Positions 39,772-42,985 of a stretch of DNA of 64,000 bases are shown one piece after another. The first letter of the stretch is position 1. Every line of letters starts with the position of its first letter. This DNA is from Escherichia phage Ptacy1532, in the sequence record PQ863255.1. The stretch is one strand, 5' to 3'. A model generated the notes under the pieces. The model made no database searches, was not told the origin of the DNA, and was given only the letters and a program-made list of their open reading frames with translations. A program made the position numbers and the translations under genes.

Positions 39772-41802
39772 TTAACCTCTATTCAATGAACATTTAGGAG
39801 AATTACAATAAACTTGATTCATAGAACCAAGCGTACAACTTTCAGCATCGCGCCACGGAATCTGCTTAAAACACTCTGAACAGTAACCGAGGGTTGACCA
39901 CATTGCTTTGGTGAAGTCAGTGCTTCGGTTTCCGTCGAAGCTGACAACAGTTTTGCGGAGAGCTGTTCGTGATTCAGGAAACACACCTGCTTTCTCAGCA
40001 GGTTCCTCCTTTTTTGGCTTAGTTGAGATTGCAAAAATACTGTTGCTACGTTTCTCAACATAAGCATCAACAACATCCTCCAGAGTGATGCCTGTCTGTT
40101 TCGCTGAGGAAGGTAATACAGTCATACGACCAATCATGTCTTCAGTTACACGTAAAGCAAATTCAGGACGACGGGCGTTTGTTGTATCTGTTGCTTTAAT
40201 CCAGACATAACCATCTTTGATCGTAGCATTAGACACTTTCTTCTTTACTTCTACAGCGCAGACTTTACAGATATCTTCACCACGAAGACGACTAAGTTCA
40301 TCATCGAACTCGTTCTCTGTTTTAACTTCACCGCAGATTTCACAAACACCAATAGGAGTTTCCTCCTCTTCTTCGTCTTTAGATTTAGTCAAACCTTCCA
40401 GACATTCAGGATGCCAGTAGCACTGATATGCGAAGACTGCTTTAGGTGCGTCCTTCCAATCAATGTGTTTGTCACAACCGCCACAGTCACCATGAGAGTG
40501 TGCTTCCCAGAATTTACGAGTGATAGTAACGCCATTCTTGTTGACGAAACTATCATTCATGTCAAAAGGGATATCATCATCAAAGTCAGCAGTAGTAGAC
40601 TCAGGCTCCTTTTTCTCCAGAGATGGGTCAACAAAACGACCTGCTGTGATCACTAAACGGACCATAGCATTGACTTCGGAGATGCAGGATACTGTCCCAC
40701 GGTAAACAATTTTAGGGTCTTTCAGGGCATCCTGATAAGCCTTAATGTCTACGTTATGAACATCACCTTCGATATACTCTTGAGACTTCTCATCGTAGAT
40801 ATAACCAATCATCTTACCACGAGAAGGAACAGCACCAGCAGTTGCATAAGGAATAAATTCATGTGGTGTAATCTCCACAGTCATGTCGCGGCGAATGTCA
40901 ATATTTCGATCGCTTGCGATTTTGTTTTGACTTACCACTGCGTTTCTTCGACGAACGTCTGCCGCTGTCACGCCCGGCTTCGTGTCGTAAGGATTGCTTG
41001 TATTGCTTTTTGAGGAACTTTGATAGTTGCTTTGGCTGTAGTTGTTCGAGTAATAACTGCCCCAACGATTGGCTACCGTAAAAACCGGAAGCTCGTGGGC
41101 GACCTCTTCAACCAGAGTCATGCCGTTGTTTGACATATCAAAGATATACTCTGTACCAACTTTACATTCAAAATGCTCGTCAATACGGTTCTTATGAGAC
41201 TTAGAACGCTTCAGAATCCACATCAACATATCTTCTTCAGAAGCACCAAACCAATCTCTGTTACAACGTGCGAGGTGGAATGGACGCTCTTCGTTACGGA
41301 TGATATGAAGGCGGTTATCAGAAGCATCATGCCAGATTAAAGTGAAAGCACCATCCAGCTTTTGAATAGTCTCTGCTGCACCAATGGTGTTAATAGAGTG
41401 GCAGATGTTCTCACTGTCTACCTCGAAGTTTTTGCTGTCAGGTAACAGATCTTGGTCCATCAAGGTTCCATTATGAACCAGAGTGATGTTACCATGTTGG
41501 AAAGGATGGGCGTTCTTGGCGTTAACTGCACCTTTCGTTGCATGACGACTGTGACCAACAATCCATGAAGGTGCTACAGTGTAAGCTGTTTCACCAGTGG
41601 TGTGCTTCTTGTACTCATCTTGTAAGATGAATGCGAAAGAAGGAAGAGCTTCTTTATAAGTGAAGACTTCCTTAGTGCTTTTACGCTGACCAAAGATACC
41701 AGAGGAATGTTGTCCTCGGAATACTCCAGCATAAAAGAGTTGGTTGAATACGTCTAAATCGGTGCTTGACAGATTACCGCCAGCTAATACGATGCCACAA
41801 AT
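39772..41802 (-). CDS. class-II glutamine-amidotransferase-like N-terminal-nucleophile (Cys1) protein with Cys-rich zinc-ribbon C-terminal region; apparent AUU start codon
   Basis: Track ORF begins at TTG 41463, but the frame stays open 113 codons upstream to a TAG; the upstream part reads (M)CGIVLAGG ... RHATKG ... NAHPF ... LVHNGT, a classic Ntn GATase-II N-terminus; only ATT precedes Cys, 8 nt after an AGGTGG RBS. Confidence 0.65.
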   Translation of the reverse strand: MCGIVLAGGNLSSTDLDVFNQLFYAGVFRGQHSSGIFGQRKSTKEVFTYKEALPSFAFILQDEYKKHTTGETAYTVAPSWIVGHSRHATKGAVNAKNAHPFQHGNITLVHNGTLMDQDLLPDSKNFEVDSENICHSINTIGAAETIQKLDGAFTLIWHDASDNRLHIIRNEERPFHLARCNRDWFGASEEDMLMWILKRSKSHKNRIDEHFECKVGTEYIFDMSNNGMTLVEEVAHELPVFTVANRWGSYYSNNYSQSNYQSSSKSNTSNPYDTKPGVTAADVRRRNAVVSQNKIASDRNIDIRRDMTVEITPHEFIPYATAGAVPSRGKMIGYIYDEKSQEYIEGDVHNVDIKAYQDALKDPKIVYRGTVSCISEVNAMVRLVITAGRFVDPSLEKKEPESTTADFDDDIPFDMNDSFVNKNGVTITRKFWEAHSHGDCGGCDKHIDWKDAPKAVFAYQCYWHPECLEGLTKSKDEEEEETPIGVCEICGEVKTENEFDDELSRLRGEDICKVCAVEVKKKVSNATIKDGYVWIKATDTTNARRPEFALRVTEDMIGRMTVLPSSAKQTGITLEDVVDAYVEKRSNSIFAISTKPKKEEPAEKAGVFPESRTALRKTVVSFDGNRSTDFTKAMWSTLGYCSECFKQIPWRDAESCTLGSMNQVYCNSPKCSLNRG

Positions 41803-41881
41803 TTTCTAATCCACCTGAAGGGTAAACCCTTTCATCTAATTAACCTTTAAATTGTGCCCCTTTATCAGAGGCACCCATTGA

Positions 41882-42985
41882 TTACAGCGCTTGCTCTAAC
41901 TGATTTTCCAGATGGTCTGGAATGTACCCTGTGATATTGTTATCACTATGACCTGACTCACGCAGTAAGTCAAAAATAGCACGGATACGTTGTTCTGGAG
42001 CGTGTCTTACTTGAGACAGGTCAGTTGTACGAAGCATAACCAGAATCTCTTGGTACAAGTTGTTAGCGTTCCCTCGGACATACCCAAGGAATCCGTAGAA
42101 GTCTGACATAAGACGCAAGTCAACAAGAACATCTCCGTTGGAGTTGGTTCGACGTAAACGAATACGACCAGACTGTTCTACTTCATGAGAACGACAATAC
42201 AAAACATCACGGGCCATACAATAGCCTGAATGCAAATCCGATTCATCCAGATTGTAATCCAGAGGAAGGTAAGGAAGCATTGGGGCAAATCGTACAGTAT
42301 TTAAGTGCTCAATAAACTGATCATTGCTCATATCTGCGTTATCTAGAGCCAGCTTCTTCAACATCAAGAAGCGGTTAACCAGATTGAGAAGTTGACCACG
42401 TTTCCACTTAGGCTCACTGATACGGAACTCAATTGAACCGTATTGGGCAAGTGGCAGAAGGTTCAGAGATGTATATTTATCCCATGAACGAACCAGACGG
42501 TTGAAGAATTCTTCACCATCGTAGTTAAATGCGTCAGAGGCATTCATTACCTGTGCTTGTACCACTGCAAACGCAGGGCAGAAATTGCTACGGTAACGAT
42601 GGTAGCCTGAACACTTGAACAACATCTTTTCGTAGAAGGTCCAAGCAAGGATGGTCTTCTTGAGGATATTACTATCAGCATCCCTCATATCCATATGAAC
42701 GTGAGTAGAGCAACGCCAAGTCCCCTCGGCGTGCGATTCAGCTACTGCTTCACTCAGGTTGTTGATAGCGTCTAACAACTCCTGTCCGTTGTAAGGTCGT
42801 GAACATACCATTTCACAACCATTACGCAGGGAACCATCCTCTGTGCAATCCCACATATCTGCTTCGATATGTTCAGAACCTTCGAGTTCAAGTTCAATAC
42901 CGACACCGCACTGAAGTGCAATTGAACTATGCGCCTCAGTTAAACGACCTTCTCGATATCCAAAAGTTTGCGCTACAGTTGTCAT
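41882..42985 (-). CDS. glutamine-synthetase/GCS2-like COOH-NH2 ligase (amidoligase) candidate
   Basis: N-terminal GVGIELELEG resembles the G.E.E metal-binding strand of GS-like amidoligases; weaker than the other cluster assignments. Confidence 0.5.
   Translation of the reverse strand: MTTVAQTFGYREGRLTEAHSSIALQCGVGIELELEGSEHIEADMWDCTEDGSLRNGCEMVCSRPYNGQELLDAINNLSEAVAESHAEGTWRCSTHVHMDMRDADSNILKKTILAWTFYEKMLFKCSGYHRYRSNFCPAFAVVQAQVMNASDAFNYDGEEFFNRLVRSWDKYTSLNLLPLAQYGSIEFRISEPKWKRGQLLNLVNRFLMLKKLALDNADMSNDQFIEHLNTVRFAPMLPYLPLDYNLDESDLHSGYCMARDVLYCRSHEVEQSGRIRLRRTNSNGDVLVDLRLMSDFYGFLGYVRGNANNLYQEILVMLRTTDLSQVRHAPEQRIRAIFDLLRESGHSDNNITGYIPDHLENQLEQAL

What the first reader, a model, noticed from the sequence alone, without database searches (positions are those of the whole stretch)
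41797..41808. The Ntn/GATase-like gene appears to initiate at an AUU codon
The reading frame of the track ORF beginning at TTG 41463 remains open for 113 further codons upstream to a TAG at 41806-41808, and that stretch encodes a textbook class-II GATase N-terminus whose catalytic Cys must be residue 1 after Met removal. Between the TAG and that Cys there is only AAA ATT, with no ATG, GTG or TTG. An AGGTGG Shine-Dalgarno lies about 8 nt upstream of the ATT. AUU initiation is rare (E. coli infC is the classic case) and usually lowers or regulates expression.
Basis: seen in the sequence. Interest (0 to 1): 0.55.

Follow-up and report, generated by a model that had tools for sequence, protein, structure and literature searches.

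The report
Phage amidotransferase gene starting at AUU
A phiEco32-like coliphage enzyme gene almost certainly begins translation at the rare start codon AUU instead of AUG, reference records already annotate it that way, and about three in ten of the relatives sampled here have AUU or AUC at the same position, which suggests deliberate tuning of expression.

Summary
On the minus strand the frame reads TAG(41808-41806) AAA ATT(41802-41800) TGT(41799-41797, Cys) GGC ATC. There is no ATG, GTG or TTG between the stop and the Cys, and AGGTGG lies 8 nt upstream of the ATT.

The window is a Kuravirus, 100% identical here to phage Ptacy1479. The 113 codons from the ATT down to the previously called TTG start are under strong purifying selection (dN/dS 0.07-0.09). 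They carry the class-II amidotransferase N-terminus. Distant orthologues begin Met-Cys at exactly this Cys.

All 98 related phage records keep the junction, which rules out a sequencing error. The ATT start is not new as an annotation. The phiEco32 (2008), SU10 and at least one BASEL record (Bas87) already begin the CDS there, while other records truncate the gene.

Three things go beyond the finding:
- About 55 nt of the leader are nearly invariant although synonymous sites nearby are saturated.
- The leader holds a stem-loop next to the SD and an in-frame 9-codon mini-ORF whose UAG lies 3 nt before the AUU, the same spacing as the thrS-infC junction.
- Of 122 dereplicated family members, 35 have ATT or ATC before the Cys.

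AUU initiation is the best-supported reading, but no experiment has tested it. Interest is moderate.

The parts
39772..41802 (-). Full-length gene for the class-II (Ntn) glutamine-amidotransferase-like protein, orthologue of phiEco32 phi32_83. It encodes 676 codons from the ATT, 76.05 kDa with the initiator Met.
   Evidence: The phiEco32 and SU10 records annotate the same 2031-nt CDS.
41800..41802 (-). ATT, the proposed initiation codon (AUU).
   Evidence: It is the only start-like codon between the in-frame TAG and Cys1. It is present in all six Gordonclarkvirinae sequences and in BUCT695 in the alignment. The junction around it is kept in all 98 related phage records.
41797..41799 (-). TGT, the catalytic Cys1 of the Ntn amidotransferase domain.
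   Evidence: Distant orthologues read ATG-TGT/TGC here. Profile position 1 aligns to Cys2 of GFAT1.
41806..41808 (-). In-frame TAG. It closes the mini-ORF and lies 3 nt (AAA) upstream of the ATT.
   Evidence: TAG ends 14 phiEco32 genes.
41811..41816 (-). Shine-Dalgarno AGGTGG, 8 nt upstream of the ATT.
   Evidence: Duplex energy with the 16S tail is -5.9 kcal/mol.
41818..41831 (-). Stem-loop AAGGG-TTTA-CCCTT, 1 nt upstream of the SD.
   Evidence: about -5 kcal/mol. The only change in BUCT695 is in the loop. Compensatory stems occur in the same register in L062 (CCGTA/TACGG) and L212 (GCCG/CGGGC).
41806..41835 (-). In-frame mini-ORF ATG AAA GGG TTT ACC CTT CAG GTG GAT TAG (MKGFTLQVD*). It runs through the hairpin and the SD.
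   Evidence: It is kept in all aligned Gordonclarkvirinae and in BUCT695 (MKGLTLQAD*). Its own SD is weak, -3.4 kcal/mol.
41854..41874 (-). Terminator-like hairpin GTGCCTC-TGATAAA-GGGGCAC after the amidoligase gene, which ends at 41882. The U tract that follows is poor.
   Evidence: fold. The stem is GCGCTC...GGGCGC in SU7 and Bas87. WFI101126 (MK373770, NC_070991) has a 'terminator' feature under the match. The simple terminator scan did not call it.
39772..41463 (-). The truncated ORF (TTG start, 563 aa, 63.76 kDa) produced by mechanical ORF listing. Ptacy1479 annotates a CDS 3 nt shorter at its 5' end (start equivalent to window 41460), and other records use other internal starts.

Best explanation
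The gene is translated from AUU(41802-41800).

Shown by sequence and comparison:
- The protein must begin one codon before Cys 41799-41797.
- That codon is ATT.
- A Shine-Dalgarno AGGUGG sits 8 nt upstream.
- The whole roughly 55-nt initiation region is under nucleotide-level constraint.

Inferred from established knowledge of bacterial initiation (infC and pcnB AUU starts, IF3 proofreading):
- A 30S subunit docks on the SD and places fMet-tRNAfMet on AUU with a third-position mismatch.
- IF3 rejects most such complexes, so output is low and sensitive to IF3 level and physiological state.
- Deformylase and methionine aminopeptidase then remove fMet and expose the alpha-amine of Cys1. A class-II (Ntn) amidotransferase needs this for catalysis.

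Two leader features probably compensate for or modulate the weak codon:
- A small stem-loop abuts the SD. It may keep the SD unpaired, give ribosomes a standby site or stack on the SD helix.
- An in-frame 9-codon mini-ORF has its UAG 3 nt before the AUU, the same geometry as the E. coli thrS stop/infC AUU junction. Ribosomes that terminate there could reinitiate at the AUU.

Whether initiation is mostly de novo or by reinitiation remains open.
For: - Frame, TAG, ATT, Cys and SD read directly.
- The N-terminal 113 codons have dN/dS 0.07-0.09 at dS 1.6-2.5 against SU7, KBNP1711 and Bas87.
- Pfam GATase_6 and GATase_7 score above their cut-offs. The family profile hits GlmS, PurF and AsnB, and Cys1 aligns to Cys2 of GFAT1.
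- Eight distant phage orthologues and 60 of 80 IMG/VR loci read ATG-TGY at the same position.
- The junction is kept in 98 phage records: 68 identical, 28 with 1-2 mismatches. In contrast, third codon positions in the next 300 nt are only 40-44% identical.
- phiEco32 has ATT as a start in 1 of 128 genes, and TAG ends 14 genes. There is no suppressor tRNA.
- In 122 dereplicated family members the codon before the Cys is ATG 77, ATT 28, ATC 7, TTG 8, GTG 1. Of the 35 ATT/ATC loci, 26 have no in-frame canonical start after the upstream stop, and all those inspected have GGAG-type SDs 6-9 nt upstream.
- ATT/ATC leaders have stronger SDs, median -7.3 against -5.9 kcal/mol, p=0.002.
- A hairpin abuts the SD in 11 of 12 ATT/ATC leaders against 0-1 of 45 others in the first sample, and in 6 of 20 against 2 of 39 in an independent second sample.
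- The infC junction is UAA GGU AUU. In reporters with that geometry, de novo initiation and reinitiation contributed about equally (PMC3592434).
- The protein is made during SU10 infection: 9 peptides were detected (PMC4281155).
Against: - No experimental N-terminus, toeprint or ribosome-profiling data exist for any of these phages.
- The SU10 proteomics table lists the truncated 63.8-kDa model, so it says nothing about the first 113 residues.
- AUU is a weak start, and an overlapping out-of-frame UUG (41800-41798, spacing 10) could compete with it.
- The hairpin association is much weaker in the second sample.
- Loci in the comparisons are related to each other, so the Fisher p-values overstate independence.
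- The mini-ORF has only a weak SD (-3.4 kcal/mol) and is absent from most other ATT/ATC leaders, so its role is uncertain.
Confidence: 0.85

Rival explanations
1. Translation starts at the mini-ORF AUG (41835). The UAG at 41808-41806 is read through, and the resulting 12-residue propeptide (MKGFTLQVD-X-KI) is removed autocatalytically to expose Cys1. This resembles the 11-residue propeptide of Bacillus subtilis PurF (my own knowledge).
For: The mini-ORF is exactly in frame and is kept in all Gordonclarkvirinae and in BUCT695. In the homologous leader of L062 the TAG position is GAG, and the frame is open from an ATG at codon -12, giving MTVFIRLGDEKI|C with the same length and register. In L212 an upstream HNH-like ORF is in frame and ends at the same TAG. 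B. subtilis PurF structures are among the profile hits.
Against: TAG ends 14 other genes of the phage, and no suppressor tRNA is encoded. From my own knowledge, basal UAG readthrough in E. coli is low. Of the 35 ATT/ATC homologues, 26 have no in-frame canonical start upstream at all. ATG-type orthologues have no propeptide. The ATG at -12 in L062 has no SD, whereas its ATC has AGGAG 8 nt upstream. The two BUCT695 substitutions inside the mini-ORF are both non-synonymous, so the peptide sequence is not what is conserved.
Confidence: 0.05
2. The upstream 113 codons are a decayed remnant. The functional protein starts at an internal canonical codon, TTG 41463 or another, as many GenBank records annotate.
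For: Automated annotation in Ptacy1479, KBNP1711, EP335, SU7 and BUCT695 places the start at internal codons. The SU10 proteomics table lists the 63.8-kDa model.
Against: dN/dS is 0.07-0.09 across the 113 codons, with no stops or frameshifts in any relative. Those codons contain Cys1, R28, the GHxRxATxG motif and the NAHPF motif, all invariant across the family. A protein starting at 41463 would lack the nucleophile and about half of the GATase fold, since the Pfam match spans residues 75-175. Different records choose different internal starts, which is what gene callers that do not allow ATT would produce.
Confidence: 0.03
3. AUU is the start codon but is reached mainly by termination-reinitiation. 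Ribosomes translate the mini-ORF and melt the hairpin. They terminate at the UAG and then reposition 6 nt downstream onto the AUU with help from the SD. This is a mechanistic variant of the best explanation, not a competitor for the start codon.
For: The UAG-AAA-AUU spacing equals the thrS-infC UAA-GGU-AUU spacing. In reporters with that geometry, about half of downstream initiation was attributed to reinitiation (PMC3592434). The mini-ORF ATG and TAG are both kept in every aligned member of this leader family. In L212 and L078 a long upstream ORF ends 3-4 nt before the ATT, and in L301 a stop codon sits directly next to the ATT.
Against: The mini-ORF SD is weak (-3.4 kcal/mol). Most other ATT/ATC leaders have no ORF ending next to the start. 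Conservation of the ATG and TAG cannot be separated from the general invariance of the leader.
Confidence: 0.35
4. The invariant roughly 55-nt segment is conserved for a reason other than translation, and the ATT merely lies within it. Possible reasons are a promoter or transcription start, a protein-binding or processing site, or a recombination or homing target that spreads between phages.
For: The segment is far more conserved than the neighbouring coding sequence. It is shared by BUCT695 and L212, whose proteins are only distantly related, while closer protein relatives (L026, L027, L029) have ATG and a different leader. In L212 an HNH-endonuclease-like ORF abuts it.
Against: There is no match to the gp36 promoter consensus tAATGTAtA. 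The mapped gp36 promoters lie upstream of genes 6, 13, 26, 40, 58 and 68, not gene 83 (PMC8948821). There is no sigma-70-like promoter on this strand in the spacer. The motif occurs once in the window, and no Rfam family matches it. The conserved parts are those a translation-initiation region needs: hairpin, SD, A-rich spacer, start and first codons. Even if true, this would not change where translation starts.
Confidence: 0.15

Closest known systems
E. coli infC (IF3) AUU start at the thrS-infC junction
   Same: Both have an AUU initiation codon with an SD. In both, the stop codon of an upstream reading frame lies exactly 3 nt before the AUU: UAA GGU AUU in infC (PMC3592434) and UAG AAA AUU here. 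Both are expected to show IF3-dependent discrimination.
   Different: infC autoregulation works because its product is IF3 itself, and nothing links this amidotransferase to IF3. Here the upstream frame is a 9-codon mini-ORF rather than a real gene, and a stem-loop abuts the SD. IF3 dependence has not been tested.
E. coli pcnB (poly(A) polymerase I) AUU start (my own knowledge)
   Same: A rare AUU start is used to keep the level of an enzyme low.
   Different: The protein, organism and leader are unrelated. No family-wide recurrence of AUU or AUC starts is known to me for pcnB.
phi32_83 of phage phiEco32 (ABY52884.1 / YP_001671828.1), SU10_085 (AIF71837.1) and Bas87_0079
   Same: These are direct orthologues, 99% identical for phiEco32 over the first 240 residues. 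Their deposited CDS coordinates already begin at this ATT.
   Different: These are annotations only. I found no text discussing or testing the start codon. The 2008 and 2012 phiEco32 papers could not be read. Other records, including Ptacy1479 which is 100% identical to the window here, truncate the gene.
Class-II (Ntn) glutamine amidotransferases: GlmS, PurF, AsnB
   Same: The fold family is the same, with Cys1 as nucleophile and the R...G, NAHP and D-S motifs. Cys1 must be exposed by removing what precedes it.
   Different: The phage protein has a long Cys-rich C-terminal part unrelated to the synthase domains of GlmS, PurF or AsnB, and its acceptor reaction is unknown. The cellular enzymes start with AUG. 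Some, such as B. subtilis PurF, use a propeptide (my own knowledge), which is not the case here.

Membership tests
Genes initiated at a non-canonical AUU codon (infC/pcnB type) | No ATG, GTG or TTG in frame between the nearest upstream stop and the conserved N-terminus of the protein | tested here: met
   The sequence is TAG-AAA-ATT-TGT. The same holds in the six aligned relatives and BUCT695.
Genes initiated at a non-canonical AUU codon (infC/pcnB type) | Shine-Dalgarno sequence at functional spacing from the AUU | tested here: met
   AGGTGG with an 8-nt spacer, -5.9 kcal/mol.
Genes initiated at a non-canonical AUU codon (infC/pcnB type) | The AUU is conserved among orthologues rather than a strain-specific mutation or error | tested here: met
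   The ATT is present in all six Gordonclarkvirinae sequences and BUCT695 in the alignment. The 71-nt junction is kept in 98 phage records, 68 of them identical. ATT or ATC occurs in 35 of 122 dereplicated family members.
Genes initiated at a non-canonical AUU codon (infC/pcnB type) | Experimentally determined N-terminus or initiation site; dependence on IF3 | not testable with these tools
   The only proteomics found lists the truncated model.
Class-II (Ntn) glutamine amidotransferase domain | Significant match to the family profiles | tested here: met
   GATase_6 scores 55 bits (cut-off 27) and GATase_7 scores 27.4 (cut-off 25). The family profile hits GlmS, PurF and AsnB structures.
Class-II (Ntn) glutamine amidotransferase domain | Cysteine as the first residue after the initiator Met, plus the conserved Arg, Asn-Gly and Asp residues | tested here: met
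   C1, R28, N96-x-H-P-F, D128 and S129 are invariant in alignment A2. Cys1 aligns to Cys2 of GFAT1. Orthologues read Met-Cys.
Class-II (Ntn) glutamine amidotransferase domain | Glutaminase or amide-transfer activity | not testable with these tools
   No biochemical data were found.
Propeptide-processed Ntn amidotransferase (B. subtilis PurF type) | Uninterrupted ORF from a canonical start through a short propeptide into Cys1 | tested here: not met
   An in-frame TAG lies 2 codons before the Cys. TAG is a normal stop in this phage.
Programmed stop-codon readthrough or TAG recoding | A suppressor tRNA, or TAG avoided as a terminator elsewhere in the genome | tested here: not met
   The only tRNA is tRNA-Arg(TCT). 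14 of 128 phiEco32 CDS end in TAG.
Termination-reinitiation coupling (thrS-infC-like junction) | An upstream reading frame ends within a few nt of the downstream start | tested here: met
   The mini-ORF UAG lies 3 nt before the AUU.
Termination-reinitiation coupling (thrS-infC-like junction) | The upstream frame is actually translated | tested here: inconclusive
   The mini-ORF has an ATG but only a weak SD (-3.4 kcal/mol). No expression data exist.
phiEco32 gp36-dependent promoter | Match to the consensus tAATGTAtA 6-8 bp upstream of a transcription start | tested here: not met
   The consensus comes from PMC8948821. The spacer contains TAATTAGAT, which matches only 4 of 9 positions. Gene 83 is not among the mapped promoters.

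The most novel reading that the evidence does not exclude
The AUU start here may be one instance of a family-wide translational control module that has not been described. In about 29% of sampled phage Ntn-amidotransferase genes, the codon before the catalytic Cys is AUU or AUC and never AUA (AUA-UGU would create an out-of-frame AUG). These starts come with stronger-than-average SDs and often with a small stem-loop abutting the SD. One version of the leader, hairpin-CAGGNGGAUUAGAAA-AUU-UGUGG, is shared almost base for base by Kuravirus coliphages, an Aeromonas phage of another family and a metagenomic contig. Closer protein relatives use AUG with other leaders. This suggests either exchange of the leader between phages or extreme constraint on it. 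The module would make synthesis of a glutamine-consuming enzyme depend on IF3 level or nutrient state, a phage counterpart of infC-type control.
Probability: 0.3. Interest if true: 0.65.

Novelty: new member of a known kind. Interest (0 to 1): 0.45.

Why it matters
**Annotation.** Several deposited genomes of this phage group, including the record identical to the window here, annotate a truncated protein. It lacks the catalytic Cys and about half of the amidotransferase fold, because gene callers do not allow ATT. The correct product has 676 residues.

**Biology.** Naturally conserved AUU starts are very rare. In phiEco32 only 1 of 128 genes has one. The textbook cases are regulatory. A phage enzyme family in which AUU or AUC recurs in about three of ten lineages would be a natural system to ask why a weak, IF3-proofread start codon is selected. 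The stronger SDs and the frequent SD-adjacent hairpin add to this. Possible reasons are keeping a glutaminase low, coupling it to host physiological state, or ensuring complete Met removal from an enzyme that is inactive until Cys1 is exposed.

**Limits.** The mechanism is a known one and the specific start is already in reference annotations, so the finding itself is only moderately surprising.

Tried and rejected
- **Sequencing error:** rejected. The junction is kept in 98 records.
- **Suppressor tRNA or TAG recoding:** rejected.
- **Known RNA family in the leader:** an Rfam E-value scan gave only sub-threshold noise.
- **Repeated promoter-like motif:** the leader motif occurs once in the window. 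There is no sigma-70-like promoter on the gene strand in the spacer and no gp36 consensus.
- **Alternative SD-sequestering hairpin (GGUUUACC/GGUGGAUU) from the minimum-energy fold:** rejected. Both BUCT695 substitutions break it, whereas the AAGGG/CCCUU stem survives.
- **Frameshift or hop into the amidotransferase frame:** I examined the +1 and +2 frames by eye. Neither has an upstream ORF that could feed in. The nearest matching GAU or GUG landing sites would delete the Cys or run into stops.
- **Metagenome scan with GATNAGAAAATYTGTGG:** of the 120 matches held, 119 were chance hits. Only L212 carried an amidotransferase.
- **IMG/VR scan for the exact Kuravirus leader:** it returned only five contigs with phiEco32-like lengths.
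- **Papers:** the 2008 and 2012 phiEco32 papers could not be opened. Text searches for any discussion of an ATT or AUU start in these phages found nothing.
- **SU10 proteomics:** the table lists the truncated model, so it is uninformative for the N-terminus.
- **The 'hairpin abuts SD' rule as universal for ATT/ATC leaders:** an independent sample weakened it to an enrichment, 6 of 20 against 2 of 39.
Full report
**What is there.** The window matches phiEco32-like coliphages (genus Kuravirus). The 801 bases around the finding are 100% identical to Escherichia phage Ptacy1479 and 97-98% identical to phiEco32, SU10 and many others.

The gene lies on the minus strand. Read 5'->3' on that strand, the junction is ...TAG ATG AAA GGG TTT ACC CTT CAG GTG GAT TAG AAA ATT TGT GGC ATC GTA.... 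The relevant coordinates are:
- second TAG at 41808-41806
- ATT at 41802-41800
- Cys codon TGT at 41799-41797

The mechanically listed ORF starts far downstream at TTG 41463. Between the TAG and the Cys there are only AAA and ATT. AGGTGG (41816-41811) lies 8 nt upstream of the ATT.

**The upstream 113 codons are coding and define where the protein must begin.**
- The full product matches Pfam GATase_6 (55 bits, cut-off 27) and GATase_7.
- A profile of the family's N-terminal domain hits GlmS, PurF and AsnB structures. Its first position, the Cys, aligns to Cys2 of human GFAT1, the residue exposed after Met removal.
- Against SU7, KBNP1711 and Bas87, the 113 codons from the ATT to the codon before TTG 41463 have dN/dS 0.07-0.09. 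Synonymous divergence is essentially saturated (dS 1.6-2.5).
- Distant orthologues all read ATG-TGT or ATG-TGC at exactly this position. This holds for Privateer, SE131, PKM.Hi.22.6, Aeromonas 4_4572, PJNS034, RIO-1, LUZ24 and KIT05, and for 60 of the first 80 IMG/VR loci.

A protein starting at TTG 41463 would lack the nucleophile and about half of the fold. That alternative is rejected.

**The ATT is real and conserved.**
- The ATT is present in all six Gordonclarkvirinae sequences I aligned and in BUCT695.
- The 71-nt junction is identical in 68 phage records and has 1-2 mismatches in 28 more, which are only about 82% identical over the flanking 251 nt. It is 90% identical in Aeromonas phage BUCT695 of another family.
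- Over -58..+11 the Suseptimavirus and Nieuwekanaalvirus sequences match the window at 62-64 of 69 positions. Third codon positions in the next 300 nt match at only 40-44%.
- In the phiEco32 annotation, ATT is the start of 1 of 128 genes (this one), and TAG ends 14 genes.
- The window encodes a single tRNA, tRNA-Arg(TCT).

Sequencing error and TAG recoding are excluded.

**Already annotated, but inconsistently.** The original phiEco32 record (EU330206, phi32_83), its RefSeq copy, SU10 (KM044272, SU10_085) and Bas87 all start the 2031-nt CDS at this ATT. Ptacy1479, KBNP1711, EP335, SU7 and BUCT695 use internal starts.

I found no paper that discusses the start codon. The two phiEco32 papers most likely to mention it could not be opened.

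SU10 proteomics detected the protein with 9 peptides. Its table lists 63.8 kDa, the mass of the truncated 563-residue model. The full protein is 76.05 kDa. The N-terminus is therefore experimentally unknown.

**The leader.** Three features lie inside the invariant segment.
1. A stem-loop AAGGG-UUUA-CCCUU (41831-41818, about -5 kcal/mol) sits 1 nt upstream of the SD.
   - BUCT695 changes only a loop base.
   - The homologous leaders of IMG/VR locus L062 and metagenome locus L212 have different stems in the same register (CCGUA/UACGG and GCCG/CGGGC). The structure is therefore what is kept.
   - The alternative SD-sequestering helix in the minimum-energy fold is broken by both BUCT695 substitutions.
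2. The SD is AGGUGG.
3. The mini-ORF has its UAG 3 nt before the AUU.
   - This is the geometry of the thrS stop/infC AUU junction (UAA GGU AUU). In reporters with that geometry, initiation at the second cistron was about half de novo and half reinitiation (PMC3592434).
   - In L212 a long HNH-like ORF, in frame, ends at the same TAG.
   - The mini-ORF's own SD is weak (-3.4 kcal/mol), so I cannot say whether it is translated.

No promoter explains the conservation. The gp36 consensus tAATGTAtA is absent, and gene 83 is not among the mapped gp36 promoters (PMC8948821). There is no sigma-70-like site on this strand in the spacer. The motif is unique in the window. Rfam gives nothing.

**A family-wide pattern.** Two samples of relatives from IMG/VR plus the phage records were dereplicated at 90% protein identity, giving 122 sequences. 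The codon before the Cys is:

| Codon | Count |
|---|---|
| ATG | 77 |
| ATT | 28 |
| ATC | 7 |
| TTG | 8 |
| GTG | 1 |

- Of the 35 ATT/ATC loci, 26 have no in-frame ATG, GTG or TTG after the upstream stop. All those inspected have GGAG-type SDs 6-9 nt upstream.
- ATA never occurs. ATA-TGT would create an out-of-frame ATG (inference).
- On a rough neighbour-joining tree the ATT/ATC state is scattered, at 27 parsimony steps. This is surely inflated by tree error but is not a single clade.
- The closest non-Gordonclarkvirinae relatives (L026, L027, L029, 63-66% identity) use ATG with a different leader. The more distant BUCT695 and L212 share the Kuravirus leader.
- ATT/ATC leaders have stronger SDs, median -7.3 against -5.9 kcal/mol (Mann-Whitney p=0.002).
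- In the first sample a compact hairpin ended 10-15 nt before the start in 11 of 12 ATT/ATC leaders, against 0-1 of 45 others. In phiEco32 as a whole it did so in 11 of 128 genes, gene 83 included.
- In the independent second sample the enrichment persisted but was much weaker, 6 of 20 against 2 of 39. I treat it as a tendency, not a rule. The loci are related to each other, so the p-values overstate independence.

**Most likely mechanism.**

Shown:
- The protein begins at the codon before Cys 41799-41797.
- That codon is AUU.
- A well-placed SD precedes it.
- The initiation region is under strong nucleotide-level selection.

Inferred from established knowledge of bacterial initiation:
- fMet-tRNA initiates on AUU with a wobble-position mismatch.
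- IF3 proofreading keeps the yield low and sensitive to physiological state.
- Deformylase and Met-aminopeptidase expose Cys1, without which an Ntn amidotransferase is inactive.
- The hairpin and the strong or extended SD partly compensate for the weak codon.
- The mini-ORF may add a reinitiation route.

I put 0.85 on AUU being the start. I give roughly even odds on how much reinitiation contributes. UAG readthrough with propeptide cleavage gets about 0.05, and an internal start about 0.03.

**Comparison with known systems and novelty.** It works like the infC and pcnB AUU starts. It meets the sequence-level criteria for that class: no canonical alternative, an SD, and conservation. The experimental criteria are untested. 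It is not a PurF-type propeptide gene, because an in-frame TAG intervenes. It is not a recoding case either.

The specific start is already in reference annotations and AUU initiation is a known mechanism. I therefore classify it as a new member of a known kind, not yet described in any text I could find.

What may be new is the recurrence of AUU and AUC across this enzyme family, and the near-identical leader shared by distantly related phages.

**Verdict.** Interest is moderate (0.45). The finding has practical value for annotation, and the family-level pattern deserves an experiment.

Noticed in passing
window 41798-41800 (minus strand), with the short frame running to about 41774: The ATT-TGT junction creates an overlapping out-of-frame UUG (the last base of ATT plus TG of the Cys codon), 10 nt from the SD. 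It opens an 8-codon frame (LWHRISWR*). Similar 7-8-codon frames follow the ATT in BUCT695, L065, L070 and L078. Initiation there could compete with the AUU.
   Followed up: partly
window 41854-41874 (minus strand): A terminator-like hairpin lies between the amidoligase gene and the amidotransferase leader. Its stem sequence differs in SU7 and Bas87 (GTGCCTC/GGGGCAC against GCGCTC/GGGCGC). The U tract is poor, and the simple terminator scan did not call it. One GenBank record has a terminator feature under the match.
   Followed up: partly
L007 (Aeromonas phage BUCT695) 2990-3070; L212 about 540-600: The Kuravirus-type leader (hairpin, CAGGNGGATTAGAAA, ATT, TGTGG) is shared almost base for base by phages whose amidotransferases are only about 52% identical (BUCT695) or more distant (L212, not quantified). 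Closer protein relatives (L026, L027, L029) have ATG and a different leader. This suggests exchange of the leader or extreme constraint.
   Followed up: partly
L212 about 90-581: An ORF of at least 163 codons has an HNH-endonuclease-like C-terminus (...NCRWATRTEQNNN...). It lies directly upstream of, and in frame with, the amidotransferase gene and ends at the TAG 3 nt before the ATT. A free-standing homing endonuclease here could explain movement of the leader between phages.
   Followed up: no
window 41803-41840 (minus strand): The hexamer ATTAGA occurs twice as a direct repeat, 30 nt apart (ATTAGATGAAA at 41840-41830 and ATTAGAAAA at 41810-41802). The two copies bracket the hairpin and the SD. 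ATG-type relatives have a single ATTAGAGGA-like SD region after a shared TTTAAATG motif. The hairpin-SD block may have arisen by insertion or duplication.
   Followed up: no
window 39772-40560 (minus strand), C-terminal third of the protein: The C-terminal part has several CxxC-type clusters (HGDCGGCDKH...CYWHPEC; CEICGE...CKVCA; CSECFKQ...CNSPKC) that look like zinc ribbons. No Pfam family covers them at E<=0.01.
   Followed up: no
GenBank records of related phages (L002-L007): Different records start this gene at different internal codons, or label the neighbouring amidoligase as the aminotransferase (EP335 ORF87). Ptacy1479, 100% identical to the window over the stretches compared, annotates a truncated CDS that starts 3 nt inside the 563-aa ORF.
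   Followed up: yes
L070, L082, L086 upstream of the amidotransferase gene: In several ATT/ATC-type metagenomic contigs the upstream gene (about 135-150 aa) ends ...YKRVEYI(V/I)(N/S)K(Y/F)... just before or inside the 5' arm of the SD-adjacent hairpin. This is a different gene order from the Kuravirus cluster.
   Followed up: no
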